Source: an uncultured Lachnospiraceae bacterium (GTDB taxonomy: Bacteria > Bacillota > Clostridia > Eubacteriales > Eubacteriaceae). Taken from it: a stretch of DNA of 24,000 nt. The notes beneath the pieces are model-generated. The model searched no databases and was not told the DNA's origin. It saw only the letters and a program-made list of their open reading frames with translations. The number at the start of each line of letters is the position of its first letter. Position 1 is the stretch's first letter. Positions 2,207 through 24,000 of this stretch are shown here, piece after piece. Both the position numbers and the translations under genes were made by a program. The stretch is taken from assembly GCA_964346185.1 (NCBI GenBank), contig CAYFTR010000006.1, positions 33,916 to 57,915 of the forward strand. Reading direction: 5' to 3'.

Positions 2207-2213
2207 GTATGTG

Positions 2214-3587
2214 ATGGCAAAAGTAAAAACAAAATATGTTTGTCAAAATTGCGGTTTCGAATCCGCAAAGTGGTTGGGGCGTTGCACTTCCTGTAATGAA
2301 TGGAACACCATGGTGGAAGAAATCGAAACACCGAGCAGCAAAAGAACTCCGGTGGTATCGGACATTCAAAAGAAAAGTGCCGGGCCTAAAAAACTCAAGG
2401 ATATTCAATTAGCAAAAGATCCGAGAATAAAAACCGGTATCAAAGAGTTGGACAGGGTTCTCGGCGGCGGCATTGTGCCCGGGTCGGTATTGCTGCTCAG
2501 CGGCAACCCGGGTATCGGAAAATCCACCCTGCTAATGCAGACGGTGCAGGCTTTGGGACAAAAGGACATCGGTCTGTTGTATATTTCAGGGGAAGAATCG
2601 GAACAGCAACTGAAAATGCGAGCCATGCGTTTGGGAATTCGGTCGGAAAACGTCTTTTTTTTAGGAGAGACCGATCTTCTCCAAATGCTGCATTGGATCG
2701 GAAAAACTAAACCGAAAATATTAATTATAGACTCCATTCAAACCGTTCAAAATCCGCAATTGGATTCCGCTGCGGGATCGGTTAGCCAAATTAGGGACAA
2801 CACCCATATTTTAATGCAAGTGGCAAAAAAAAATAATATTGCCACCGTATTGGTCGGACACGTTACAAAAGACGGTGCGATTGCAGGTCCGAGGGTGTTA
2901 GAACATATGGTCGATACGGTATTATACTTTGAAGGCGAAAAAAACCACAGTTTCAGAATATTAAGAGGAACGAAAAACCGCTTCGGCTCGACTAATGAAA
3001 TCGGTATTTTTGATATGACTGCAAAAGGTTTAATAGCGGTGGAAAACCCTTCGGAATGGGTATTAAACAGCCGGGCGGAGGGAAGCAGCGGTACAGCCAT
3101 TATCCCAACTATGGAGGGATCACGTCCCCTTTTAATTGAGATACAGGGGTTAATGACCGCTACGGGTTTCGGAACGCCCAGGCGCATGTCCACAGGGTTC
3201 GATTATAATCGCCTGGTTTTACTGATTGCCGTAATGGAAAAACGGATGGGTATCGATATGCAAAATTTCGATGCCTATATCAATGTAGTCGGCGGGTTTA
3301 AAATCGACGAACCGTCTGCGGATTTGGCGATTATTGCCGTATTGTATTCCAGTTTGAAAGATAAACCTGTTCCGGCGGATGTTATGATCCTCGGGGAGGT
3401 CGGCTTAACCGGAGAGGCGCGTTCGGTTCGGTATGCACGGAAAAAAATTAATGAAGGCTTAAAATTTGGCATGAAGCGTTGTATTTTGCCTAAACAAAAC
3501 ATAAAAGAAGTTGAAGATGAGGCGATGACTCTATATCCGGTAACCACTTTGGCCGAAGCTTTACACATTCTCATGGTGGAGGCTTAA
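2214..3587 (+). CDS. radA: DNA repair protein RadA/Sms
   Basis: N-terminal C4 zinc finger (CQNCGFESAKWLGRCTSCNEW), Walker A GNPGIGKST, the RadA-specific KNRFG motif and a Lon-protease-like C-terminal domain. The start is ATG 2214, or GTG 2211 as in the track. Confidence 0.95.
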   Translation: MAKVKTKYVCQNCGFESAKWLGRCTSCNEWNTMVEEIETPSSKRTPVVSDIQKKSAGPKKLKDIQLAKDPRIKTGIKELDRVLGGGIVPGSVLLLSGNPGIGKSTLLMQTVQALGQKDIGLLYISGEESEQQLKMRAMRLGIRSENVFFLGETDLLQMLHWIGKTKPKILIIDSIQTVQNPQLDSAAGSVSQIRDNTHILMQVAKKNNIATVLVGHVTKDGAIAGPRVLEHMVDTVLYFEGEKNHSFRILRGTKNRFGSTNEIGIFDMTAKGLIAVENPSEWVLNSRAEGSSGTAIIPTMEGSRPLLIEIQGLMTATGFGTPRRMSTGFDYNRLVLLIAVMEKRMGIDMQNFDAYINVVGGFKIDEPSADLAIIAVLYSSLKDKPVPADVMILGEVGLTGEARSVRYARKKINEGLKFGMKRCILPKQNIKEVEDEAMTLYPVTTLAEALHILMVEA

Positions 3588-3642: not shown

Positions 3643-3649
3643 ACCTGTA

Positions 3650-3873
3650 CTGGGGTGTGCGTTATCGACTATTTTTGAACCTACACCATTAATACGAGAA
3701 CCCGCGTTTGTTTTTAGATGTCAAGCCTCTATAAGTGGACGGCAGAAGAAAGCAACAGGGTACTCACCTAGTCATTCGCTAGGGCGTCAAAAATAAGAGA
3801 CGGCACCTTGGTATTGCGTATAACGCCGTGCCATTTCGGATTATAACCATCAATCCGAAATGGCACGGCGTTT
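3650..3873 (+). ncRNA. Unclassified structured RNA of about 220 nt: a candidate 6S-like sRNA, or a terminator-containing leader of the ruvA operon
   Basis: Bounded by its own promoter and an 18-bp terminator hairpin, with no credible ORF on either strand. A long imperfect closing helix pairs 3652-3673 with 3810-3832 (perfect 7-bp core GCGUUAU 3659-3665 with AUAACGC 3820-3826). The U-rich single-stranded stretch CUAUUUUUGAACC follows at 3669-3681. Confidence 0.4.
3823..3873 (+). terminator. Intrinsic terminator hairpin with a short U-tract
   Basis: ACGCCGTGCCATTTCGGA (3823-3840) is perfectly complementary to TCCGAAATGGCACGGCGT (3854-3871). The loop is 13 nt and the hairpin is followed by TTTAT. 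Confidence 0.75.
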
Positions 3874-3909: not shown

Positions 3910-4506
3910 ATGTTCGATTATATTAAAGGTAAAATAGCCCATCAAAGAGAGGATGCCGTTGTTGTTGATATAAACGGTATGGGTTATTTAATTCATATCA
4001 ATTTAAAAACAGCCTCAGAAATACCGGAAAGCCATCGGGAGGTTATCCTTTATCTTTATCCCGTTTTTAAAGATGACAATGTTGCCTTATACGGCTTTTT
4101 TCATTTAGAAGAAAGAGAAATGCTTAAGACATTAACGACGGTTTCGGGTATCGGTGTGAAAGGGGGGCTGGGAATATTGTCCTATTTTACAGTTGAAACG
4201 CTGATAAGCCACATTGTCAATGAAGATATTAAGGCTTTGAGCCAAGCACCGGGTATCGGGAAAAAAACCGCTGAACGTTTAATTTTTGAATTAAAGGACA
4301 AGTTTAAAGATGTTTTAGATAATAAGACATCGGAGCCTGAACAAACAATCGGAGTAGTAAAAAGTATCCACGACGAAGTGGTTGAAGCTTTGGTTACTTT
4401 GGGGTATTCTTATTCTGAAGCTCGGGCAAGTGCTAAAAAAGCCTACCGGGAAAACACCACCTTGGAAGAAATGATTAAGGAATGCTTGATTCTTTTAGCG
4501 CAATAA
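3910..4506 (+). CDS. ruvA: Holliday junction branch migration complex subunit RuvA
   Basis: N-terminus MFDYIKGKI, helix-hairpin-helix motifs ([22 protein letters not shown]) and a C-terminal domain III. RBS AAAGGA lies upstream. Confidence 0.95.
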
Positions 4507-8123: not shown

Positions 8124-8264
8124 ATGAAACACATCAAAATTATCAACAAAGGCAATCTTTCAGAAATTAAAAATAAAGGTTGCGGCGAATGCCAAACTTC
8201 TTGCCAATCGGCTTGTAAAACCTCTTGTACCGTAGGCAACCAACAATGCCGTCAAAGTAAGTAA
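8124..8264 (+). CDS. scfA: Six-cysteine ranthipeptide precursor SCIFF (46 aa; below the ORF-track length cutoff)
   Basis: RBS GGAG sits 8 nt upstream of ATG 8124. The translation is MKHIKIINKGNLSEIKNKGCGECQTSCQSACKTSCTVGNQQCRQSK. It carries the hallmark GCGECQTSCQSACKTSCTVGNQ core with six Cys and lies immediately upstream of a radical-SAM/SPASM enzyme. Confidence 0.9.
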   Translation: MKHIKIINKGNLSEIKNKGCGECQTSCQSACKTSCTVGNQQCRQSK

Positions 8265-8367: not shown

Positions 8368-8414
8368 ATTGAAACAATTGCATTGTTTTGAAAATCCGAT
8401 TAAAGGAGAATACA

Positions 8415-9770
8415 GTGGTTCATCAGTTTTATAGAAAAGGGTATTACGTCGTATTAGATGTAGATACCTCAACACTAATGACTGTCGACGCTATGACCTA
8501 TCGTCTCATTGAAGACTTTATGCGTTTAAACAGACAGGAATTGGTCGAAAAATATGCACCGGAATACGGCAAGCGACAGGTCGCCGATGCTGTCGATGAA
8601 ATACAGAGCATGGTGGATGACGGGCTTTTGTTTACCGATCACCGATACGATCCGTCATTTTATCGCGGTCATGACGGCGTTAAGGCACTTTGTCTACACA
8701 TTGCCCACGACTGCAACTTAAAATGCGAATACTGCTTTGCCTCCCAAGGAGACTTTAAGGGCGAGCGTTCACTAATGTCCCTCGAAGTGGGAAAAAAAGC
8801 CGTTGACTTTGTTATTGAAGCCTCAAATCAACGTAAAAATATAGAAATCGACTTTTTCGGCGGAGAGCCTTTAATGAACTTTGATGTGGTTAAAAACATT
8901 GTTGATTACGCACGTCAACGTGAAAAAGAAACCGGCAAACATTTCAACTTTACCATGACCACCAACGGTGTATTACTGGACCGGGAAAAGCGGGATTATC
9001 TCAACGCCAATATGAACAATATCGTTTTAAGTCTGGACGGTCGAAAGGAAGTAAACGATCGGGTTCGCAAAACACTCAACGACAAAGGTTCTTACGAAAC
9101 CATTGCCGACAATATTTTTAATATGGTTGAGGAGCGGGGAGATAAAGAATACTATGTTCGCGGCACCTACACCAAATACAACCCGGACTTTTCAAAGGAC
9201 GTTTTATTTTTGGCACAACAGGGAGTTAAGGAGATCTCCGTCGAACCCGTCGTTGCTAAAGCAGATCGGGATTACGCCGTTTTGAAAGAGGATTTACCGA
9301 GAATTTTGGAAGAGTACGACACCTTACTCGACGAAATGATTGAAGATTATCGCAAAAACGGGGAAGAATCTTTTCGCTTTTTTCACTATATTTTGGACAT
9401 GAATAACGGCCCTTGTGTTTACAAACGTCTGTCCGGATGCGGTGCGGGCAACGACTATCTGGCAGTAACCCCCGAGGGCGATTTATACCCCTGTCACCAA
9501 TTTGTTGGGGAAGAGACCTTTAAATTAGGAACATTGGATACCGGTTTAGAAAAAAAGCTAATGACCGAAGATTTTAAAAAAGCCAATTTACTGGAAAAAG
9601 AAGCGTGTCAAAGTTGCTGGTGTAAATATTTTTGTGGCGGCGGTTGCCACGCCAATGCCTATAATTTTAACCAAACGCTTTTAAAACCCTATGATGTTGC
9701 CTGCGAAATCGAAAAAAGACGTGTGGAAAACGCTCTGATTCTTCAAATAATAAAGAATGAAGAATATTGA
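8415..9770 (+). CDS. scfB: Thioether cross-link-forming SCIFF peptide maturase (radical SAM with SPASM domain)
   Basis: GTG 8415 follows AAAGGAG (8403-8409); the track start 8388 is a likely 5' extension. It has the radical SAM CxxxCxxC motif (CNLKCEYC), and a C-terminal Cys-rich SPASM region (CVYKRLSGCGAG...PCHQF...CQSCWCKYFCGGGCHANAY). It is adjacent to the SCIFF precursor. Confidence 0.9.
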   Translation: MVHQFYRKGYYVVLDVDTSTLMTVDAMTYRLIEDFMRLNRQELVEKYAPEYGKRQVADAVDEIQSMVDDGLLFTDHRYDPSFYRGHDGVKALCLHIAHDCNLKCEYCFASQGDFKGERSLMSLEVGKKAVDFVIEASNQRKNIEIDFFGGEPLMNFDVVKNIVDYARQREKETGKHFNFTMTTNGVLLDREKRDYLNANMNNIVLSLDGRKEVNDRVRKTLNDKGSYETIADNIFNMVEERGDKEYYVRGTYTKYNPDFSKDVLFLAQQGVKEISVEPVVAKADRDYAVLKEDLPRILEEYDTLLDEMIEDYRKNGEESFRFFHYILDMNNGPCVYKRLSGCGAGNDYLAVTPEGDLYPCHQFVGEETFKLGTLDTGLEKKLMTEDFKKANLLEKEACQSCWCKYFCGGGCHANAYNFNQTLLKPYDVACEIEKRRVENALILQIIKNEEY

Positions 9771-9796
9771 CAATTTAAAAGCATAAAGTTTATACT
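9767..9796 (+). promoter_or_regulatory. Near-consensus sigma-A promoter (TTGACA-18 nt-TATACT) overlapping the scfB stop
   Basis: TTGACA at 9767-9772 and TATACT at 9791-9796. The predicted start near 9803 coincides with the first base of the RNA's outer helix. Confidence 0.6.
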
Positions 9797-9802
9797 TAAA
9801 AT

Positions 9803-10039
9803 CTCCTGAGTCTGTGGTTGAAAATCAATGCCAGTCGCAGGCGAAATGATCCACGTAAGGCTTATAAAAATCTAAAAAGCTGAGCATAGTGCGGCTTAGA
9901 AGTAAGTCCGGCCGACGCAGTCGAGAGGAAGAGTCGTGAATAGCTAAATTCCCAGCCGGCGAGTGTGGGGGTAAAGACCAGGTCAGTCAGGAGAGCTGCA
10001 GCCGAGTCTGCTCGTAATGAGCAGGCTCGGCTGCTTTTT
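9803..10039 (+). ncRNA. Stand-alone structured RNA of about 235 nt immediately upstream of hpf/raiA: a candidate raiA-motif RNA
   Basis: It has its own strong promoter and a 16-bp terminator. No credible ORF is present; the minus ORF 9862..10152 spans the terminator and a promoter. The 5' and 3' ends pair (CUCCUGA 9803-9809 with UCAGGAG 9987-9993, CUG 9812-9814 with CAG 9984-9986, UGGUU 9815-9819 with GACCA 9976-9980). There are GC-rich internal complementarities (CCGGC 9908-9912 with GCCGG 9955-9959). The position directly 5' of hpf matches the described raiA-motif locus. Confidence 0.5.
9998..10039 (+). terminator. Strong intrinsic terminator
   Basis: GCAGCCGAGTCTGCTC (9998-10013) pairs with GAGCAGGCTCGGCTGC (10019-10034) with one G-U pair. 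The loop is 5 nt and TTTTT follows. Confidence 0.85.
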
Positions 10040-10180
10040 AACAGAATCATCATTAAAAGAAAAACGAACCCGCCAAAGATCGACTGGCTATAATCCGGTT
10101 TAATTAATTTGTAAACATAGTATAAAAACCGGCATAATCCTTGATGAGACAAGCAAACTAATGCTTTTTTTAAAAAAACA

Positions 10181-10189
10181 TGCTATAAT
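10181..10189 (+). promoter_or_regulatory. Extended -10 element (TGcTATAAT) for hpf
   Basis: TGCTATAAT at 10181-10189, about 60 nt upstream of the hpf ATG. No good -35 is visible. Confidence 0.4.
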
Positions 10190-10249
10190 CATCTTACATT
10201 CAACCGTTCATTCATCAGAAATCAACGACATTTGAAAGGAGTAGCAATA

Positions 10250-10780
10250 ATGAAATTCACCATTTATGGAAAAAACATGCACGTATCGGAAGGGTTAAAG
10301 GAAACTTTAAGAAAAAAGTTTGAAAAATTTGATCGTTACTTTGACAGAGAAACGGAAGTTTACGCGACTTTTAGTAGAGAAAAAAACCACAATGTTTTAG
10401 AAGTAACAATACCTATGGGTAAAACAATTTTGCGTGCAGAAGAAATAACGGAGGACATGGTCGGTTCAATCGAAGCGGTTGTCGATAAGTTGGAAGGTCA
10501 ACTGCGGAAACATAAATCAAAGCTTAAAAAACAATATGCCGGAGAGTCACTCAGATACAATTTCGATGCGATTGAAACTGTTGAAGAGGAAAACGAAGGA
10601 CCGAAGGTTGTACGTACAAAAAAATTTGCAGTTAAACCTATGTCTGTTGATGAAGCAACCATGCAAATGGAATTGTTAGGGCACGACTTCTTTGTGTTTT
10701 TGAACGGTGAAACCGATGATGTCAATGTCGTTTATATGAGAAAAGATGGAAATTACGGGCTTATTGAACCCATATTTTAA
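10250..10780 (+). CDS. hpf: Ribosome hibernation promoting factor, long form (RaiA/YfiA/HPF family)
   Basis: ATG 10250 follows AAAGGAG; the track start 10232 is a 5' extension. The N-terminal sigma-54-modulation/S30EA fold is indicated by MKFTIYGKNMHVSEGLKE. The C-terminal dimerisation domain is indicated by VVRTKKFAVKPMSVDEATMQMELLGHDFFVFLN. Confidence 0.93.
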   Translation: MKFTIYGKNMHVSEGLKETLRKKFEKFDRYFDRETEVYATFSREKNHNVLEVTIPMGKTILRAEEITEDMVGSIEAVVDKLEGQLRKHKSKLKKQYAGESLRYNFDAIETVEEENEGPKVVRTKKFAVKPMSVDEATMQMELLGHDFFVFLNGETDDVNVVYMRKDGNYGLIEPIF

Positions 10781-10792
10781 ATTGTATTTGGC

Positions 10793-10824
10793 AAACACCC
10801 GTTGCAACAACGGGTGTTTTGTTT
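10793..10824 (+). terminator. Intrinsic terminator after hpf
   Basis: ACACCCGTTG (10795-10804) pairs with CAACGGGTGT (10808-10817), followed by TTTTGTTT. Confidence 0.75.
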
Positions 10825-10850
10825 GACAACACTTTTAAATTGATTTAAAA
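10822..10850 (+). promoter_or_regulatory. Candidate sigma-A promoter (TTGACA-17 nt-TAAAAT)
   Basis: TTGACA at 10822-10827 and TAAAAT at 10845-10850, about 50 nt upstream of ATG 10902. Confidence 0.5.
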
Positions 10851-10901
10851 TATATCAATAAGTTTGCGTAAAATTTCAAAATTATAAATGAGGACGTATA
10901 T

Positions 10902-12485
10902 ATGGTATTTTTATTCGCCATTTTAACTGGCATTATCATAGGATCTTTAAGAAAAGGTACAATATCCAATATCAAGTCGACGCCGTTATCTCTATTACCC
11001 TTAGGTTTGATCGGCATCGTTGTTCAAATTGCACTACATTTTTCCGTATATTTTCCTTCAGCAAATTCATTAGACATGGTGATACCGGTACTTAACTTGG
11101 TTTCATACGTTTTTATTTTGGTGATGTTAACCTTTAATCTGGATGAAGTCTGGAACGTTATGATGGTCGTCGGAACGATGGCCAATTTTGTCGTTACATT
11201 TATGAATGCGGCAAAAATGCCCGTTGCAGCAGATATTATCGCATCGATCGATCAAACCCGTTTGGGTCAAGCCGTCATTGCACAGAACAATCTATCCGGT
11301 GGCTTAATTGAACACTTGAGTATCTTTACACAAATTGATTTACAGACCACAAAATTGTGGTTTCTGGGTATCAATATCAAGATACCCTTTATGGAATACC
11401 TGTCTCCACACTACGGTGCGGTGCCGGGTATAACGATCGGAACTATATTGGTGTTAATCGGTATTATAGGTTGGGTTCAATCAGCAATGACACATAAAGA
11501 AGAAGTGACAACGGTCGAAGAAAACGAAATAGAAGCTGTCGCAGAACAGCCGGCTATTGAACAATCCCCCATAATCCTAAATACGGAAACAACCAAGGCC
11601 ATCGACAATTTAAAAGAACTGGATACCGAACCCGAATTGCAGATCTTACCTGTATCGGAAAAGGAAGACGTAAAAATAGTTGCGGATGAAAAGTCGGACA
11701 CCGTGCCTTACATTAAAGTGGTACCTCAAAAAGAAGATCAAGGCGAAAAACCCCAAGGATTTTTCACACAAAACTTTTATGCTGAAAAAGAAAAAAGCAT
11801 GCATAAGGAAGCAGCTGTTCAACCGCCTAAAGAAGAAGTTCAAGAAACAAAAACGGCTGCCTCTGCCGAGAGCCTCGACACAGAGGTAAAAGTAGCGGAG
11901 CAAACGCACAAAGAACGTAAAGCAACAACTGATACGGATATTTTGGGACCATCAATCTTGGAAGTGCTGAATAAAGAAACAATTCGTACGGAAGAATCCT
12001 TTTTTAATGAGTCGAAGCCGACAGAAACGGAAAAGGAAGAAGAAGCGTTACCGGTACGCAAACAAAAGCCCATTATTGTTACAACCGGTGGTAGTAACAG
12101 AGGAAGAAGTAGAAAAATGAGTCAACCCAAGAAAAAAATCGGTTTAAATGAAGATGATATGCGTAATGTATGGCAAAGTGTTGCAAAAGAAAACCAAAGG
12201 CTTAAACAGAGAGGTCGCGGCTACGTAATAGAAGAACAACCGAAAAAATCGGAGGAAAAAAGATTCTATACAAAACCTGTCGGCACCGAAAAAGCAGATC
12301 AGAAACAAGAACAGGATTTAATCAACCAGAAGATTGATGAAACGGCTTTTTCCGTAACAAAGCCTTTAAGCTTCGGTGATGAAACGCCGATAAACACCGA
12401 CGATGCCCTTCGGGAAAAAGCAGGGTACGAAAAAGTACATGTAACCATAGAAGGGAAAGAAATTTCCTATTGGAAAAAGGTCTGA
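10902..12485 (+). CDS. Membrane protein with a DUF5317-like N-terminal domain and a roughly 330-aa E/K/T/Q-rich low-complexity C-terminal region
   Basis: The N-terminus MVFLFAILTGIIIGSLRKG and about 6 TM segments (aa 1-197) resemble DUF5317 proteins of Clostridia. Residues from about 198 to 527 are highly charged and biased. Several spurious ORFs open in other frames over 11.5-12.1 kb, as expected for purine-rich coding. Confidence 0.6.
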   Translation: MVFLFAILTGIIIGSLRKGTISNIKSTPLSLLPLGLIGIVVQIALHFSVYFPSANSLDMVIPVLNLVSYVFILVMLTFNLDEVWNVMMVVGTMANFVVTFMNAAKMPVAADIIASIDQTRLGQAVIAQNNLSGGLIEHLSIFTQIDLQTTKLWFLGINIKIPFMEYLSPHYGAVPGITIGTILVLIGIIGWVQSAMTHKEEVTTVEENEIEAVAEQPAIEQSPIILNTETTKAIDNLKELDTEPELQILPVSEKEDVKIVADEKSDTVPYIKVVPQKEDQGEKPQGFFTQNFYAEKEKSMHKEAAVQPPKEEVQETKTAASAESLDTEVKVAEQTHKERKATTDTDILGPSILEVLNKETIRTEESFFNESKPTETEKEEEALPVRKQKPIIVTTGGSNRGRSRKMSQPKKKIGLNEDDMRNVWQSVAKENQRLKQRGRGYVIEEQPKKSEEKRFYTKPVGTEKADQKQEQDLINQKIDETAFSVTKPLSFGDETPINTDDALREKAGYEKVHVTIEGKEISYWKKV

Positions 12486-13071: not shown

Positions 13072-15588
13072 ATGGGTTTTTTCAGCAGTTTGTTTGATCA
13101 CAGTAAACGACAAATCAAAAAGTTCAACAAAAAGGCGGAAGAAATTGTTGCCTTGGAACAGGCGTATCGCAATTACTCGGACGAACAACTTAAAAATAAA
13201 ACACAGATCTTTAAAGAACGATTAACACAAGGGGAAACCCTCGACGATATTTTAGTAGAGGCCTTTGCGACGGTTAGGGAAGCCTCAACAAGAGTATTGG
13301 GCATGACCCACTACCCCGTGCAATTAATCGGCGGTATGGTCTTACACCAGGGAGATATTGCCGAGATGAAAACAGGAGAGGGAAAAACGCTGGTAGCAAC
13401 CTTACCGGCCTATTTGAACGCCCTGGAAGGCAAAGGCGTATACATTGTAACGGTGAACGATTACCTGGCAAAGCGTGACTCCGAATGGATGGGCAGCATT
13501 TTTAAATTTTTAGGTTTAAGCGTGGGATTGGTTGTACACGGTTTAAGCTACGATGAGAAAAAAGCCGCCTACGCGGCGGACATTACTTACGGAACCAATA
13601 ACGAATTCGGCTTCGATTACTTAAGAGACAATATGGTCATCGATAAGAGCCAACAGGTACAGCGACAACTCAATTACGCCATTATCGACGAAGTCGACAG
13701 CGTTCTTATTGACGAAGCCAGAACACCGTTAATTATTTCCGGTAGCGGCGAAGAAAGCACAAAGCTTTATACGGTGGCCAATACCTTTGTTAAAACACTC
13801 AGACCGCAACACTATGTAAAGGACGAAGAGTCAAAAACCGTGGTTTTAACCGAAGAAGGCATCCAAAAAGCCGAAAGCTTTTTTAATTTGGAAAACCTCG
13901 CCGATGTTGCCAACATGGGAATCTCCCATAACATTAACCAAGCCTTACACGCCCATATCTTAATGACAAGAGATATCGACTATATGGTTAAAGAAGGCGA
14001 AGTGATTATTGTCGACGAGTTTACAGGCAGGCCGATGCCGGGGCGTCGTTACTCCAACGGTTTGCACCAGGCCATCGAAGCTAAGGAAGGCGTAACCGTT
14101 AACCGCGAATCCAAAACACTGGCAACGGTAACCTTTCAAAACTACTTCCGTATGTTTCATAAATTAGCTGGCATGACCGGTACCGCAAAAACAGAAGAAG
14201 AGGAATTTACATCATTATACAACCTGAACGTTATCACCATTCCGACCAACAGCGAAATGTCCGGAACCGGTGTGCAACGAAAAGATTTAAACGACTTGGT
14301 TTACCCGACCGAAGCAAAAAAATTTAAAGCCATTGTTGCCGATGTTAAAGAACGGCACAATATCGGACAGCCGGTACTTATCGGGACCATATCCATCGAA
14401 AAATCCGAGTTGCTCAGCAAATACCTCAAACGGGAGGGTATCCATCACAACGTATTAAATGCAAAATATCTGGAAAAGGAAGCGGATATCATAGCGATGG
14501 CGGGTCAAAAAAATGCCGTTACCATCTCCACCAATATGGCGGGTAGAGGAACGGACATTATGCTCGGCGAAGGCGTTAAGGAACTCGGTGGGCTGCACAT
14601 ATTAGGAACCGAACGACACGAAAGCCGCCGCATCGACAACCAGTTACGAGGGCGTTCCGGTCGCCAGGGCGACCCCGGCTCCTCTCAGTTTTATATTTCC
14701 TTGGAAGACGACTTGATGCGAATTTTCGGATCGGATCGTATTAAAGATTTTGTAGATAATGCCGGTCTGGACGACGATACTCCCATAGAAAACAAATTAT
14801 TAACCAAAGGTATCGAAAACGCACAAAAAAAAGTAGAGAGCCGAAACTTTAATATCAGAAAAAACGTCCTCCAATACGATAACGTGATGAACCGTCAAAG
14901 AGAAATTATCTACGGACAGCGACAACAGGTTCTCGACGGCGAAAACATGCACGAACAGGTACATAAAATGACCACGGACATGGTCAGCCACTATGTACAA
15001 ATGTTTACCAATCGAGGCGATTATTACGAAGATTGGGATATTCAGGCGTTAGTTAACTTTTTTGAAAGCGGCTTTTTACCGAAAGGATCTCTGGATTTAT
15101 CCGATAATACTTTAAGCGTTGAGGAAATTGAAGCACGTATTCTCCAAGTGTTTGAAACGCTCTACGAGGAAAAACGTCAGGTATTGTCCGACGAAAGTTT
15201 GGAAAACCTGGAACGGGCAATTTTATTAACAACCGTAGATGCCGCCTGGATGGAGCACATTGACAACATGGATCAGCTCAAGCAAGGTATCGGGCTTAGG
15301 GCGTACGGACAAACCAACCCTGTGGACGAATATACCAAGGAAGGTTTTGCCATGTTCGAGGAGATGACCTATCGCATTCAGGAAGATACGGTTAAGTATA
15401 TCCACAATGTCGATGTCAACAAATTACCCACAACTATGCATACACAACAAAATTTGGACAATGTACAAACCAATCAAAACGAAGTCCAAGGGAAGCCGAT
15501 ACCGCAAGTTAAAAAGAAAAAAATCGGACGCAATGAACCTTGCCCCTGTGGCAGCGGAAAAAAATACAAAAACTGTTGCGGCAGATAG
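13072..15588 (+). CDS. secA: Preprotein translocase ATPase SecA
   Basis: 838 aa with MKTGEGKTL (Walker A), [29 protein letters not shown] and the C-terminal zinc-binding tail [14 protein letters not shown]. Confidence 0.98.
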
Positions 15589-15618: not shown

Positions 15619-16717
15619 GTGATCGATGTTTATGAAATTAAACAAAGCATTGAAGAAATGAACGATTTACTGATAAAGCTGGGTGATTCACTTTGACTTA
15701 CCGAGTTTAAGAAGAGAAATCGAAACTTATACGAAAGAAACGGAACAACCGGACTTTTGGAGCGACAGCGACAAAGCCCAAAAAATTTTAAAAAAATTAA
15801 AGCAACTTAAATACAAAGTAGATCAATATGACCGTTTGACCGACGATCTGGACGACTTTAAAATTATGCTGGAATTACTGGAAGTCGGTGAAGAGGTCGG
15901 AAATATCGACAAAGAGCTGGCCGCTTACCGCGAAGGATTGGAAAACTTTAAATTGGAAACCTTACTTTCCGGCGAGTACGACGGCAACAATGCCATTATT
16001 TCAATTCATTCCGGTGCCGGGGGCACCGAATCCCAGGACTGGGCGGAAATGCTCTTACGTATGTTTACCCGTTGGGCGGAGAAAAAGGGTTATAAACTGA
16101 AAACGCTGGACTTACAACCGGGCGATGTCGCCGGTATTAAAAGTGCAACCATTTTAGTAGAAGGAGTAAATGCCTACGGTTATCTGAAAACGGAAAGAGG
16201 TGTCCACCGATTGGTGCGTATCTCTCCTTTCGACTCCTCCGGCAGACGCCACACCTCCTTTGCCTCTCTGGATGTGGTACCGGAAGTGGACGACACGGTA
16301 GAAATAGACATTAACCCCGACGATATTCGCGTGGATACCTATCGTGCCAGCGGTGCCGGCGGGCAACACGTCAACAAAACCTCCTCTGCGGTGCGTATTA
16401 CCCACATACCGACGGGCATTGTTGTTCAATGCCAAAACGAGCGTTCCCAACACCAAAACAGAGATGTTGCCATGAATATGCTCAAAAGTAAACTCATCGA
16501 AGTCCTGGAGCAGGAAAACAAAGAAAAACTGGACGATATAGTTGGCGACTACTCTCAAATTGCTTGGGGTTCACAAATCAGATCCTATGTGTTTCACCCC
16601 TATACCATGGTAAAAGACCATCGTACCAATGTGGAAATGGGCAATATTCAATCCGTAATGGACGGAGATATCGACCCTTTTATGAATGCCTACTTGCAAC
16701 AACAAGTGAAAGCTTAG
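15619..16717 (+). CDS. prfB: Peptide chain release factor 2, requiring a programmed +1 frameshift at 15691-15697
   Basis: Frame 0 runs from GTG 15619 (MIDVYEIKQSIEEMNDLLIKLGDSL) to the in-frame TGA at 15694-15696. The +1 frame continues DLPSLRREIE... to 16717. The SPF tripeptide (RISPFDS) and GGQ (SGAGGQHVN) are present. The track shows only the downstream frame. Confidence 0.95.
15681..15697 (+). promoter_or_regulatory. prfB recoding site: internal Shine-Dalgarno-like GGGUGAU plus the slippery CUU UGA C
   Basis: GGGTGATTCACTTTGAC. GGUGAU matches the extended anti-SD complement. CTT TGA C is the canonical RF2 shift site. Confidence 0.85.
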
Positions 16718-21825: not shown

Positions 21826-24000
21826 ATGAAAAGACTGTTGCCGATTTCAATACTTTTTTCAATAGCCGGAATTATATTCATTTATTTTCGTGCCCCGTTT
21901 TATCTGCTCATTTTATTGTTCGGTTTGTTACTTGTCGTACCGTTGTTCTTTTCTTTTAATAACATGTCCCAATCGGCAACGCTAATGTTTATTTTTTTAT
22001 GTGTTGTGTTTCGTATGTCGCAATTGAATACGCAGCAAATGGAATTGCAACCTTTTTATGATACGGAACACACCTACGAAGCCGTTGTAATCGATGAAGT
22101 GCAAATAGACAATGGCAGAGGTCGTTCTACCCTACAACTGTTAAACGGGGAAGAGCAACCCCTCAAAGGGAAGGTGATCTTTCATGTATACGATGTGTCC
22201 CGACCTCAATTAATCCAACCGGGACAGGTCATTCGGTTTAAAGGTACCTTAAGGGAATTATCCCCTAAGAGAAATCCCGGCGGCTTCAACGAGAAACTAC
22301 ATTATACCACCAAAGGTGTCTACGGTCGATTGACTCTCTCCGAAAACAGCATAGAGCCGGTAGGGTATCGGGAACGTTGGACCTTTAAGTTTTTGCATTT
22401 TCGACGTTTGTTGGTCCATCAATTAACGACCTTAACGGAGCGGCAACCGGTCCGTGACTTGGTAAGTACTTTGTTGCTGGGGGAAAAGCTCCATGATACA
22501 ACGATAGAGGAAGGTTTCAGAACGGTGGGTATCTCCCATATTTTAGCCATATCGGGCATGCATGTGGGGTTTTTATCGATGGCGTTATTAAAGTTGTTTG
22601 AGCGACTTAAAATTCCCGATAAAATCGCACGCATATTAAGCGTTATAGGATTATTCTTTTATGCGATGTTGGTGGCATTTCCGGTTTCGGTCGTTCGTGC
22701 GGTACTTATGTTGGGCATTTACCAAGCGGGTGTTGTTTTAAAGCAAGTTAAAGATGCTTTTTCGGCATTGTTGGCGACGACCGCCATCGTTTTGATGGTC
22801 TATCCCGTGCAGTTGTTTTCTTTGAGTTTTCAACTTTCCTTTATGGCAACCCTCGGAATTATTTTGTTTTATCAACCCCTCCGTTATCGACTGGAACGCC
22901 GTACGGGAAGAACATCTTTTATCGGTGACAGTATTCTTTTAACCCTGTCTGCCAACGCAACGACGTTACCTATTGTTTTATTTTATTTTCACCGGTTTAA
23001 TTTATTGTCTTTTATCGGAAATATTCTTGTTGTGCCGCTTGTTGGTTTTGTATTTATTTATACCGTTGTGTTGTTACCCCTAAGCTTTGTTTTTCAAGGG
23101 ATGACTATCTTTTTGTTTCAATTTGTCCAATGGACGGTACAGTTTATTTTATGGATAACGAAAACCCTTGGCAGTATTGACGGTTTTACTTTTAGAGGTG
23201 TCGGTTTGCCCCTTGCTTTGATACTGTTGTTAGCGATTTTTATTTTTTATGCAGCTGGTTATTATCGTCCGAAGAAAAAGGGAAAGGTGGCGGTTTGTGT
23301 TCTGTTGCTTCTTGTTGCACTTATAGATGCCAAGACTTTACCCTTGACTGAACAACCCTTAAAGATATACTTTTTAGATATCGGTCAGGGGGATGCAACC
23401 TTACTTCGTACGCCGAAAGGGTACACGTATTTAATTGACGGCGGCGGTTACCAACAGGAAATTTTGGATTTAAAAAAAATACAACCGCAACCCGTGTCCC
23501 AATCGGTGCTGCTTCCCGCTTTATATGCAACCGGTGCCGACCGTATCGATGCTGCAATCATCACTCATAACCACGAAGATCACAGTCAGGGTGTCGAGGA
23601 ATTGTTGACGATGTTTCCCGTCGGGCGACTTTATCTATCAACAAAAAACAACCATCCCGTATTGGGGCAAATGGCATGTATCGATGTACGTTACCTGGCT
23701 GCCGGTCAAGCTCTAAAAACGCCCGACGGCGTTGTAATTGAGTGCTTATGGCCGACCCTACCCGTAGAAGCTCTTGACGATACATTGCAAAATCACCATG
23801 CGATGGTTTTACGCTTAGGCTACGGCAATCACCGGTTATTAATGATGTCGGACAGCGATGTTCAAACCGAAACGGCATTGGCGGACAATTTAGGTGATGT
23901 TGCTATTTTACGTGTCGGTCATCACGGGTCCAAAACGTCTACAGGCGAGGAGCTGCTGCATAAAACCAACCCCGAGGCTGCCGTTATTTCCGTCGGTCGT
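21826..24000 (+). CDS. comEC: DNA internalisation competence protein ComEC/Rec2 (3' end outside the window; absent from the ORF track because no stop is reached)
   Basis: My translation from ATG 21826 stays in one frame where I checked it (starts of codons at 22531 and 23362). It gives an N-terminal TM region, RNPGGFNEKLHY and the competence domain GISHILAISGMHVGFL. The metallo-beta-lactamase domain follows (IYFLDIGQGDATLLRTPKG, THNHEDHSQG, LRVGHHGSKTS). Confidence 0.9.
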   Translation, partial: MKRLLPISILFSIAGIIFIYFRAPFYLLILLFGLLLVVPLFFSFNNMSQSATLMFIFLCVVFRMSQLNTQQMELQPFYDTEHTYEAVVIDEVQIDNGRGRSTLQLLNGEEQPLKGKVIFHVYDVSRPQLIQPGQVIRFKGTLRELSPKRNPGGFNEKLHYTTKGVYGRLTLSENSIEPVGYRERWTFKFLHFRRLLVHQLTTLTERQPVRDLVSTLLLGEKLHDTTIEEGFRTVGISHILAISGMHVGFLSMALLKLFERLKIPDKIARILSVIGLFFYAMLVAFPVSVVRAVLMLGIYQAGVVLKQVKDAFSALLATTAIVLMVYPVQLFSLSFQLSFMATLGIILFYQPLRYRLERRTGRTSFIGDSILLTLSANATTLPIVLFYFHRFNLLSFIGNILVVPLVGFVFIYTVVLLPLSFVFQGMTIFLFQFVQWTVQFILWITKTLGSIDGFTFRGVGLPLALILLLAIFIFYAAGYYRPKKKGKVAVCVLLLLVALIDAKTLPLTEQPLKIYFLDIGQGDATLLRTPKGYTYLIDGGGYQQEILDLKKIQPQPVSQSVLLPALYATGADRIDAAIITHNHEDHSQGVEELLTMFPVGRLYLSTKNNHPVLGQMACIDVRYLAAGQALKTPDGVVIECLWPTLPVEALDDTLQNHHAMVLRLGYGNHRLLMMSDSDVQTETALADNLGDVAILRVGHHGSKTSTGEELLHKTNPEAAVISVGR

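What the first reader, a model, noticed from the sequence alone, without database searches (positions are those of the whole stretch)
9767..10039. Highly promoted stand-alone structured RNA directly upstream of hpf/raiA: a probable raiA-motif RNA in a non-canonical neighbourhood
TTGACA-18-TATACT predicts a start at about 9803. A 16-bp GC-rich terminator ends the unit at about 10039, and hpf then has its own TGcTATAAT promoter. The predicted first nucleotides pair with 9976-9993, closing the molecule. The interior is GC-rich relative to the flanks and has competing complementarities, which suggests a multi-stem or pseudoknotted fold. The raiA-motif RNA class is described as lying next to raiA/hpf, typically between comFC and raiA, in Bacillota. 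It is abundant and linked to sporulation and aggregation phenotypes, but its biochemical function is unknown. Here comFC is absent and the upstream neighbour is the SCIFF maturase.
Basis: partly seen in the sequence, partly recalled or inferred. Interest (0 to 1): 0.7.

Follow-up and report, generated by a model that had tools for sequence, protein, structure and literature searches.

The report
Known raiA (ModT) noncoding RNA gene

Summary
The observation and the interpretation both hold. Window 9801-9995 (+) matches Rfam raiA RNA (RF03072) end to end at 172 bits, against a gathering score of 101.3 (E 6e-44). No other Rfam family reaches E <= 0.1 in 9600-10400.

The RNA has a near-consensus promoter (TTGACA-18-TATACT, 9767-9796) and a 17-bp terminator (9998-10039). 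hpf has its own TGCTATAAT promoter (10181-10189).

The same RNA lies directly upstream of hpf in 35 of 52 related hpf loci (Eubacterium, Acetobacterium, one Clostridium). Across 31 distinct sequences, the published cryo-EM architecture is 96.6% base-paired, and 27 of 58 pairs show compensatory changes. The RNA's promoter is conserved almost everywhere. The terminator is kept as a structure in Eubacterium-type loci but is missing in Acetobacterium.

The "non-canonical neighbourhood" claim is only partly notable. comFC is indeed absent upstream and scfB sits there instead. But the downstream block hpf-secA-prfB is the canonical one, and the literature already reports that 26% of raiA RNAs lack an upstream comFC. 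The scfB adjacency is lineage-specific synteny that breaks within the same family.

The only local peculiarity is a truncated distal P8. The biochemical function of the class remains unknown.

Verdict: already known, low interest.

The parts
9767..9796 (+). Sigma-A-type promoter of the RNA gene: -35 TTGACA (9767-9772, overlapping the scfB stop codon TGA at 9768-9770), 18-nt spacer, -10 TATACT (9791-9796). Predicted start around 9800-9803.
   Evidence: 11 of 12 matches. TTGACA-17/18-TATAAT is conserved at the same position in nearly all 30 relatives.
9801..9995 (+). raiA-motif (ModT) RNA core, 195 nt. It belongs to the subtype without P2 and with P7-P8, like the C. acetobutylicum RNA. The distal P8 is shortened.
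   Evidence: Rfam RF03072, 172 bits, E 6e-44, full model. Covariation in alignment A1.
9801..9819 (+). 5' strand of the closing stem P1. P1a is 9801-9809, the GU bulge 9810-9811, P1b 9812-9814 and P1c 9815-9819. It pairs with 9976-9995, where the GGU bulge lies at 9981-9983.
   Evidence: P1a/P1b has 10 of 12 pairs with compensatory changes. Both bulges are invariant.
9820..9850 (+). GAA(A) junction (9820-9823) and the P3 hairpin. P3a is 9824-9827 with 9847-9850. The internal loop is AU on one strand and GAAA on the other. P3b is 9830-9832 with 9840-9842. The apical loop is 9833-9839.
   Evidence: Mapped from the cryo-EM description onto the sequence. P3a has 2 compensatory pairs and is 100% paired.
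9890..9905 (+). PK1 3' strand (9890-9896, pairs with the P3b loop 9833-9839), followed by the conserved exposed linker UUAGAAGUAA (9896-9905).
   Evidence: PK1 is 95.4% paired with one compensatory pair (A-U to U-G). The linker matches the published UUAGA(C/A)GUAA and is almost invariant in A1.
9851..9881 (+). P4 5' strand (9851-9854, pairs with 9965-9968) and the P5 hairpin (stem 9859-9863 with 9877-9881).
   Evidence: P4 is invariant. P5 has 6 of 7 pairs with compensatory changes.
9908..9959 (+). P6-P7-P8 domain. P6 is 9908-9912 with 9955-9959. P7 is 9913-9916 with 9920-9923. P8 is 9927-9930 with 9949-9952, plus 9936-9937 with 9943-9944. The distal P8 hairpin is deleted relative to the model.
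   Evidence: A 14-nt deletion against the Rfam model is shared only with the closest relative L001; in A1 the other relatives carry 7-14 extra nt there.
9998..10039 (+). Intrinsic terminator: 17-bp G+C-rich stem-loop (9998-10034) plus a U run (10035-10039). It predicts a transcript of about 237 nt, with a possible shorter isoform of about 195 nt.
   Evidence: -34 kcal/mol. The hairpin is kept but the sequence is not conserved in L001, L002, L006, L009, L037, L038, L039 and L040.
10181..10189 (+). Separate hpf promoter: extended -10 TGCTATAAT.
   Evidence: TGnTATAAT is invariant in 8 relatives.
10250..10780 (+). hpf/raiA gene: long-form hibernation promoting factor (S30AE N- and C-terminal domains). 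Shine-Dalgarno GAAAGGAG at 10234-10241.
   Evidence: PF02482 and PF16321.
8388..9770 (+). scfB (SCIFF radical SAM/SPASM maturase), the upstream neighbour. Its SCIFF peptide gene is at 8124-8264.

Best explanation
Window 9767-10039 is the gene for a raiA-motif RNA (also called ModT; Rfam RF03072) of a Eubacteriaceae bacterium.

Shown here by computation:
- A near-consensus housekeeping-type promoter should start transcription at about 9800-9803.
- The 195-nt core (9801-9995) has the full family architecture. This comprises a long closing stem P1a/P1b/P1c with the GU and GGU bulges, the GAA(A) junction, and the kinked P3a-P3b hairpin whose loop forms pseudoknot PK1. It also has P4-P5, the exposed UUAGAAGUAA linker, and a P6-P7-P8 domain.
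- A strong intrinsic terminator ends the unit at 10039.
- hpf, 254 nt downstream of the core, has its own conserved extended -10 promoter.

Inferred from experiments on C. acetobutylicum and C. difficile orthologues, not tested here:
- The RNA is made as an abundant, stable, independent transcript, probably as a terminator-containing long form and a trimmed or early-terminated short form.
- It acts in trans rather than controlling hpf in cis.
[quoted passage not shown] In C. difficile this works partly by keeping c-di-GMP low.

My best guess at the mechanism, which is speculative:
- The rigid pseudoknotted core displays two conserved surfaces, the P1 arm and the single-stranded UUAGAAGUAA linker.
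- These surfaces recruit or sequester a protein or RNA partner. KhpA/KhpB is the only candidate so far and binds weakly.
- On this view the RNA works as a scaffold or decoy RNP, comparable to 6S RNA, rather than as a base-pairing sRNA or riboswitch.
For: Family membership:
- 172 bits against a gathering score of 101.3, E 6e-44, model positions 1-209.
- no other family is significant in this region.

Conservation and structure:
- the RNA sits in the same place and orientation, 118-306 nt upstream of hpf, in 35 related loci.
-, 31 distinct sequences: 96.6% of cells pair, against 32-43% when partners are slid.
- 27 pairs (143 cells) show double-sided changes, against 5-10 pairs (10-21 cells) when slid.
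- 0 of 500 shuffles reach the observed value on any measure.

Published signature nucleotides:
- The GU and GGU bulges and G20-A21-A22 are present and invariant in the alignment.
- The linker UUAGAAGUAA is present and almost invariant.

Transcription unit:
- promoter.
- terminator.
- separate hpf promoter.

Literature:
- independent SigA-driven transcript, long and short isoforms, trans complementation, high abundance, growth-transition and sporulation phenotypes, c-di-GMP link.
- cryo-EM architecture and micromolar KhpA-KhpB binding.
Against: - There are no expression data for this organism, so the start site, transcript ends and abundance are predictions.
- No terminator separates scfB from the RNA, and the -35 box overlaps the scfB stop codon. 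Read-through from scfB could therefore contribute.
- PK2 is only half supported. U87-A173 is invariant, but the second pair forms in only 10 of 31 sequences.
- The P8 loop-E motif deviates from the consensus (AGUC/UAA instead of AGUA/GAA) and the distal P8 is missing.
- The biochemical mechanism of the class is unknown. KhpA/KhpB binding is low-micromolar and these are broad-specificity RNA-binding proteins.
- The ModT paper states that earlier KhpB analyses did not detect ModT binding.
- Eubacterium and Acetobacterium are, from my own knowledge, generally described as non-sporulating. The sporulation phenotype therefore cannot be the conserved role.
Confidence: 0.9

Rival explanations
1. The element is a cis-acting leader or riboswitch of hpf, as Rfam's type label 'Cis-reg; riboswitch' suggests. 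In this reading the terminator acts as an expression platform that gates read-through into hpf.
For: It lies upstream of hpf in the same orientation in 35 loci, at a fairly constant short distance. Rfam labels the family Cis-reg; riboswitch. Acetobacterium copies lack a strong terminator, so read-through into hpf is possible there.
Against: - The terminator folds fully alongside an intact P1, with no competing anti-terminator pairing in the MFE or centroid structure.
- hpf has its own invariant TGnTATAAT promoter downstream of the terminator.
- Published knock-outs are complemented in trans. The authors also note that raiA RNAs typically lack expression platforms and vary in orientation and neighbour genes.
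- In C. difficile and C. acetobutylicum the downstream gene is not hpf.
Confidence: 0.04
2. The RNA is a 3'-UTR product of the SCIFF/scfB operon, made by read-through and processing rather than from its own promoter. This would imply a functional link to SCIFF maturation.
For: Only 30 nt separate the scfB stop codon from the RNA, and no terminator lies between them. The order scfB-RNA-hpf is conserved in 8 related loci.
Against: - A consensus TTGACA-17/18-TATAAT sits at the same distance from the RNA in nearly all relatives. This includes Acetobacterium, where a cardiolipin synthase gene lies upstream on the opposite strand (confirmed by Pfam in L052; the same ORF layout is seen in L012).
- The promoter is also there in E. 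aggregans/barkeri, where 3.8 kb of unrelated genes separate scfB from the RNA.
- In C. difficile the orthologue has a single mapped intergenic SigA start site.
Confidence: 0.04
3. The region encodes a small protein: the 96-aa ORF at 9862-10152 (-) or the 42-aa ORF at 9965-10093 (+).
For: Both ORFs exist mechanically.
Against: - ORFs overlapping the RNA in relatives differ in strand, frame, position and length from locus to locus.
- Substitutions follow base-pair compensation, not codon structure.
- The ORFs span the terminator hairpin.
Confidence: 0.01
4. Same identity (raiA/ModT RNA) but a different mechanism. It would be a trans-acting ribozyme or a small-molecule sensor (for example of c-di-GMP or a growth-phase metabolite), rather than a protein scaffold or decoy.
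For: The size, the pseudoknotted core and the near-invariant nucleotides resemble ribozymes and aptamers. In vivo DMS reactivity changes with growth phase, and tRNA and 5S levels rise in the mutant. The core nucleotides are invariant here too.
Against: In vitro tests found no small-molecule binding. The fold does not resemble known c-di-GMP riboswitches. No cleavage activity has been reported. Nothing in this window discriminates between the mechanisms.
Confidence: 0.25

Closest known systems
raiA-motif RNA / ModT of Clostridioides difficile (CDIF630nc_001)
   Same: Both have a single SigA-type promoter, a structured core of about 200 nt closed by P1, and an intrinsic terminator immediately 3' of P1. 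That terminator would give a long isoform (260 nt in C. difficile, about 237 nt predicted here) and a short isoform (215 nt there, about 195 nt here). Both are G+C-rich relative to the genome.
   Different: The C. difficile gene is followed by a PTS antiterminator gene, not hpf. Here hpf follows. Expression, stability and phenotype are untested here.
raiA-motif RNA of Clostridium acetobutylicum (Ca-raiA; PDB 9ELY and related cryo-EM structures)
   Same: Same subtype: no P2, a GAA(A) junction after P1c, and P6-P7-P8 present. All core signature nucleotides are shared.
   Different: Ca-raiA lies between comFC and gntR, and no terminator is predicted for it. The window RNA lies between scfB and hpf and has a strong terminator. 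Its distal P8 is deleted and the P8 loop-E sequence differs (AGUC/UAA).
Mogibacterium pumilum Mp-raiA (subtype lacking P2 and P8)
   Same: It shows that P8 is dispensable for the fold, so the shortened P8 here falls within known natural variation.
   Different: The window RNA keeps the basal P8 helix and internal loop. Only the tip is lost.
6S RNA (a copy is also present in this window at 3644-3818)
   Same: Both are abundant, stable, independently transcribed structured RNAs linked to the transition from growth to stationary phase. 6S is the model for the scaffold/decoy mode of action proposed here.
   Different: The fold and family are unrelated. The 6S partner (RNA polymerase holoenzyme) is known, whereas the raiA RNA partner is not. 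The analogy is functional only and is not a membership claim.

Membership tests
raiA-motif RNA (Rfam RF03072; ModT) | Covariance-model score at or above the Rfam gathering threshold over the full model | tested here: met
   172 bits against 101.3, E 6e-44, model positions 1-209, not truncated.
raiA-motif RNA (Rfam RF03072; ModT) | Closing stem P1 with a 9-bp P1a, GU bulge, 3-bp P1b, GGU bulge and 5-bp P1c | tested here: met
   9801-9819 pairs with 9976-9995. P1a has 8 standard pairs plus a terminal A-G mismatch. G10-U11 and G181-G182-U183 are invariant in 31 sequences. P1a/P1b has 10 of 12 pairs with compensatory changes.
raiA-motif RNA (Rfam RF03072; ModT) | GAA(A) tetraloop-like junction after P1c (in the subtype without P2) | tested here: met
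   U19-G20-A21-A22-A23 is present at 9819-9823, and G20, A21, A22 and A23 are invariant in A1. The tertiary contact with the bulged A cannot be tested from sequence.
raiA-motif RNA (Rfam RF03072; ModT) | P3a-P3b hairpin with an asymmetric A-rich internal loop | tested here: met
   P3a (4 bp) and P3b (3 bp) are 100% paired. P3a has two compensatory pairs (C-G to U-A, G-C to A-U). The internal loop is AU on one strand and GAAA on the other.
raiA-motif RNA (Rfam RF03072; ModT) | Pseudoknot PK1 between the P3b loop and the linker after P5 | tested here: met
   9833-9839 pairs with 9890-9896. It is 95.4% paired, with one compensatory pair (A-U 20 sequences, U-G 11) and two single-sided changes.
raiA-motif RNA (Rfam RF03072; ModT) | Pseudoknot PK2 (two Watson-Crick pairs plus G-A pairs) | tested here: inconclusive
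   U87-A173 is invariant. The second pair is A-U in the window but forms in only 10 of 31 relatives. My register was inferred from the paper's text, not from coordinates.
raiA-motif RNA (Rfam RF03072; ModT) | Conserved single-stranded linker UUAGA(C/A)GUAA between PK1 and P6 | tested here: met
   UUAGAAGUAA at 9896-9905. T97, A98, G99, A100, G102, T103, A104 and A105 are invariant.
raiA-motif RNA (Rfam RF03072; ModT) | P4-P5 and P6(-P7-P8) arms | tested here: met
   P4 is invariant. P5 has 6 of 7 compensatory pairs, P6 has 2 of 5, P7 has 2 of 3 and basal P8 has 3 of 4. The distal P8 hairpin is deleted. P8 is optional in the family.
raiA-motif RNA (Rfam RF03072; ModT) | Independent transcription from its own promoter; a trans-acting, abundant RNA | not testable with these tools
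   Only in-silico support is available: an 11/12 consensus promoter conserved in relatives, plus a terminator. Abundance and trans action are taken from orthologues.
raiA-motif RNA (Rfam RF03072; ModT) | Single copy per genome | not testable with these tools
   Only one copy is found in the 24-kb window. The whole genome is not available.
raiA-motif RNA (Rfam RF03072; ModT) | Typical context (not defining): upstream of raiA/hpf in 66% of cases, with secA and prfB nearby | tested here: met
   hpf 10250-10780, secA 13072-15588, prfB 15683-16717.
raiA-motif RNA (Rfam RF03072; ModT) | Typical context (not defining): downstream of comFC in 74% of cases | tested here: not met
   The upstream gene is scfB. 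No ComFC/PRTase turned up among the Pfam-scanned ORFs of the window. A comFC-like PRTase is upstream in the Clostridium locus L040. About a quarter of known members also lack it.
Riboswitch / cis-regulatory leader | An expression platform in which aptamer folding competes with a terminator or Shine-Dalgarno-sequestering helix of the downstream gene | tested here: not met
   P1 and the terminator form together in the MFE and centroid structures. hpf has its own conserved promoter 140 nt beyond the terminator.

The most novel reading that the evidence does not exclude
Within Eubacteriaceae, the promoter-RNA-hpf unit behaves as one inherited module. The gene upstream of it has been exchanged at least three times: scfB, a CdaR/PucR-type regulator, and an oppositely oriented cardiolipin synthase. 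Pseudoramibacter and two MAG lineages keep hpf-DUF5317-secA-prfB but have no raiA RNA within 6 kb.

If those lineages have truly lost the RNA, and if the hpf linkage is functional, then the partner of this RNA would be ribosome hibernation or translation shut-down rather than competence. These natural loss lineages, and the genetically tractable non-sporulating Eubacterium limosum, would then offer a clean system to find its function.
Probability: 0.15. Interest if true: 0.55.

Novelty: already known. Interest (0 to 1): 0.2.

Why it matters
raiA/ModT is one of the most widespread and abundant bacterial structured RNAs whose biochemical function is still unknown, so every correctly annotated copy is mildly useful. 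This copy adds three small things:

- It confirms that the family, its consensus promoter and, in Eubacterium-type genomes, a structurally conserved terminator are present in acetogenic Eubacteriaceae. From my own knowledge these organisms are generally described as non-sporulating. That argues that sporulation is not the conserved role.
- It shows that linkage to hpf is retained in this family while the upstream neighbour changes.
- It documents a natural shortening of distal P8.

None of this changes what is known about the class or makes its function directly testable.

Tried and rejected
- Rfam's nested consensus includes a 3-bp helix (model 28-30 with UgU) and treats PK1 as a nested stem. 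I replaced this with the cryo-EM topology (P3a/P3b, P4, PK1, PK2) read from PMC12968392, because the two conflict at G30 and at 9965-9966. The cmscan alignment of P5 is also one position out of register for this sequence (see the NC marks). The register G59-U81 / G60-C80 fits the relatives.
- The gathering-threshold scan of 11 hpf loci without an nhmmer hit returned nothing at all and had no positive control. I re-checked with a profile nhmmer built from A1 and with motif regexes. Neither found raiA RNA in those loci.
- I looked for the Soares et al. neighbour-gene dataset to see whether scfB had been recorded as a neighbour. No supplement is held.
- I looked for a second conserved RNA element between the terminator and hpf (10040-10249). 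No Rfam match reaches E <= 0.1 there, and only the hpf promoter and Shine-Dalgarno sequence are conserved.
- A first Pfam query on 21827-23998 was out of frame. The corrected frame gave ComEC.
- The RNA identification did not need them.
Full report
**1. The observation**

- A TTGACA-18-TATACT promoter-like site lies at 9767-9796. It matches 11 of 12 positions, the joint-best score in 9300-10900.
- A terminator-like hairpin spans 9998-10034. It is scored as 17 pairs (11 G-C) with a 3-nt loop, followed by TTTTT to 10039.
- The stretch 9801-10039 folds at -91 kcal/mol. This is z = -4.5 against 200 dinucleotide shuffles, none of which folds as well. The 5' end pairs with 9976-9995, and the terminator forms as a separate hairpin.
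- G+C content is 50-51% across the unit, against 30-36% in the flanks.
- TGCTATAAT lies at 10181-10189, ahead of hpf.
- Pfam confirms SCIFF (8124-8264), its radical-SAM/SPASM maturase scfB (8388-9770) and a long-form hpf (10250-10780).

**2. What it is**

Scanning the whole window against all 4227 Rfam families at gathering thresholds gives two hits. One is raiA RNA (RF03072) at 9801-9995 (+): 172 bits against a gathering score of 101.3, E 6e-44, covering model positions 1-209. The other is an unrelated 6S RNA at 3644-3818. A permissive scan of 9600-10400 adds only chance-level matches, with E of 0.16 or worse and scores far below their thresholds.

I mapped the published cryo-EM architecture (PMC12968392) onto the sequence. 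With RNA position n at window coordinate 9800+n:

| Element | RNA positions |
|---|---|
| P1a | 1-9 with 187-195 |
| GU bulge | 10-11 |
| P1b | 12-14 with 184-186 |
| GGU bulge | 181-183 |
| P1c | 15-19 with 176-180 |
| GAA(A) junction | 20-23 |
| P3a | 24-27 with 47-50 |
| P3b | 30-32 with 40-42 |
| PK1 | 33-39 with 90-96 |
| P4 | 51-54 with 165-168 |
| P5 | 59-63 with 77-81 |
| Linker UUAGAAGUAA | 96-105 |
| P6 | 108-112 with 155-159 |
| P7 | 113-116 with 120-123 |
| P8 | 127-130 with 149-152, plus 136-137 with 143-144 |

There is no P2, so this is the C. acetobutylicum-type subtype. The distal P8 hairpin is missing: 14 model positions are deleted.

**3. Relatives, covariation and signals**

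*Where the RNA occurs.* A genome-collection scan with Hpf returned 52 loci, mostly Eubacteriaceae. The closest is a Eubacteriaceae MAG with 95% Hpf identity. Eubacterium callanderi/limosum are at about 84% and Acetobacterium at about 77%. nhmmer finds the RNA directly upstream of hpf, on the same strand, in 35 of these loci. The distance from the core's 3' end to the hpf start is 118-306 nt.

*Covariation.* I aligned 31 distinct sequences with MAFFT (A1) and counted pairs for the named structure.

| Measure | Named structure | 3' partners slid by 1-3 columns |
|---|---|---|
| Cells forming standard pairs | 96.6% | 32-43% |
| Pairs (of 58) with changes on both sides | 27 | 5-10 |
| Cells with changes on both sides | 143 | 10-21 |

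None of 500 shuffles reaches the observed value on any measure. By helix:

- P1a/P1b, P5, P3a, P6, P7 and P8 all show compensatory changes.
- PK1 has one compensatory pair.
- P1c and P4 do not covary: P4 is invariant and P1c changes only on one side of a single pair. Neither says much for or against the structure.
- PK2 is only half supported.

*The RNA's promoter.* A TTGACA-17/18-TATAAT promoter sits at the same distance from the RNA in nearly all relatives. These include Acetobacterium loci, where the upstream gene is a cardiolipin synthase on the opposite strand. The RNA therefore does not depend on an upstream operon for transcription.

*The terminator.* A strong hairpin plus U run follows the RNA in the Eubacterium-type loci and in the Clostridium locus. 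The hairpin sequences are unrelated even in the closest relative. Acetobacterium copies lack a strong terminator. This matches the published contrast between C. difficile, which has a terminator and long and short isoforms, and C. acetobutylicum, for which no terminator is predicted and only one isoform was detected.

*The hpf promoter.* The TGnTATAAT before hpf is invariant in 8 aligned relatives.

*Coding potential.* ORFs overlapping the RNA are inconsistent from locus to locus.

**4. The neighbourhood**

The order queA-tgt-yajC-SCIFF-scfB-RNA-hpf-DUF5317-secA-prfB is shared by the window and 8 loci: L001-L004, L006 and L037-L039. L003 is cut within scfB, so only the part from scfB onward can be seen there. 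The order breaks elsewhere in the same family:

- In E. aggregans and E. barkeri, a hydrolase, a glycerate kinase and a CdaR/PucR-type regulator lie between scfB and the RNA.
- In Acetobacterium, the upstream gene is an oppositely oriented cardiolipin synthase.
- In Clostridium sp. Ade.TY (L040), the canonical recD2-...-comFC-like PRTase precedes RNA-hpf-secA-prfB.

No comFC-like gene turned up among the window ORFs I scanned against Pfam. A comEC gene starts at 21826 and runs off the window end.

The literature reports comFC upstream in 74% and raiA downstream in 66% of 887 genomes. It lists secA and prfB as further common neighbours, and it states that orientation, distance and neighbours vary. 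So the downstream side here is canonical, and the upstream side falls within known variability. The scfB adjacency is best read as lineage-specific synteny, not a functional link.

**5. How it most likely works**

*Shown here.* The RNA belongs to the family. Its fold is conserved, and it has its own promoter and terminator. hpf has a separate promoter.

*Taken from experiments on orthologues.*

- Transcription starts from a single SigA promoter.
- Abundance and stability are very high.
- There are long (terminator-containing) and short isoforms.
- The RNA acts in trans.
- Mutants enter stationary phase late and show sporulation and aggregation defects.
- In C. difficile the mutant has raised c-di-GMP, which accounts for its sporulation defect.

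*Speculative.* The rigid core presents the length-conserved P1 arm and the exposed UUAGAAGUAA linker to a partner. KhpA-KhpB binds with an apparent Kd of about 2 uM and may use the linker. However, earlier KhpB analyses did not detect ModT binding. I favour a scaffold or decoy RNP over a riboswitch, a base-pairing sRNA or a ribozyme, but nothing in this window discriminates among these options. From my own knowledge, Eubacterium and Acetobacterium are generally described as non-sporulating, so the conserved role must be broader than sporulation.

**6. Comparison and novelty**

This is a member of RF03072 by every testable defining feature. The two exceptions are a half-supported PK2 and an optional, shortened P8. 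Any Rfam-based annotation would label it. The family and its variable synteny are described in the literature, and published surveys report it in more than 2,500 species. I therefore rate it as already known, with low interest.

The most novel reading still open is that the RNA-hpf module is the functionally meaningful unit. It rests on two observations. The upstream neighbour changes while the hpf linkage persists. And Pseudoramibacter and two MAGs keep hpf-DUF5317-secA-prfB with no raiA RNA within 6 kb. This is weakly supported. It cannot be tested without whole genomes and experiments.

Noticed in passing
window 3644-3818 (+): 6S/SsrS RNA (RF00013, 80.9 bits against a gathering score of 46.4), between a radA-like gene (2211-3587) and ruvA (3910-4506). 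This is a second abundant growth-phase RNA gene in the same window.
   Followed up: partly
window 15619-15700 (+): prfB (15683-16717) shows the classic RF2 +1 programmed frameshift. A short upstream ORF starting at about 15619/15627 ends at CTT TGA C (about 15692-15698).
   Followed up: partly
window 21826-24000 (+): A comEC/rec2 competence gene (Pfam Competence, DUF4131 and Lactamase_B) runs off the window end, so it is invisible to the ORF lister. The organism therefore has DNA-uptake genes even though comFC is not next to the raiA RNA.
   Followed up: yes
window 10902-12485 (+); the same position in all Eubacteriaceae loci (e.g. L001:6701-8266): A DUF5317 membrane protein with a long, charged, low-complexity C-terminal extension is inserted between hpf and secA throughout Eubacteriaceae. 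It is absent from the Clostridium and Bacilli loci.
   Followed up: partly
L007, L008, L029, L030, L034, L035, L036 (hpf at about 6001): Pseudoramibacter species and two Eubacteriaceae MAGs keep hpf-DUF5317-secA-prfB but have no raiA RNA within the DNA fetched around hpf (6 kb upstream, except L034 with only about 1.8 kb). The checks were profile nhmmer for all seven and an Rfam gathering-threshold scan for all but L034. The RNA may have been relocated or lost.
   Followed up: partly
Acetobacterium loci, e.g. L015:5860-5900, L012:5860-5900: A conserved motif, TTTTGTGACAAGAATTTGACACAAATGATTTTGACTAAA, lies between the RNA and hpf. Eubacterium callanderi/limosum have a palindrome there instead, TTGTTACATTATTGTAACAA (Rex-like half-sites, from my own knowledge). 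These are possible operator sites for hpf regulation. The window has no equivalent.
   Followed up: no
window 9936-9944; L001:5535-5730: The window and its closest relative share a deletion of the distal P8 hairpin of the raiA RNA. All other Eubacteriaceae copies keep 7-12 extra nucleotides there, and the Clostridium copy (L040) keeps 14. The P8 loop-E sequence in the family members here is AGU(U/C)/UAA rather than the consensus AGUA/GAA.
   Followed up: partly
Rfam RF03072 metadata: Rfam 15 still types the raiA family as 'Cis-reg; riboswitch'. This conflicts with the trans-complementation results in PMC10861870 and PMC11706538.
   Followed up: yes
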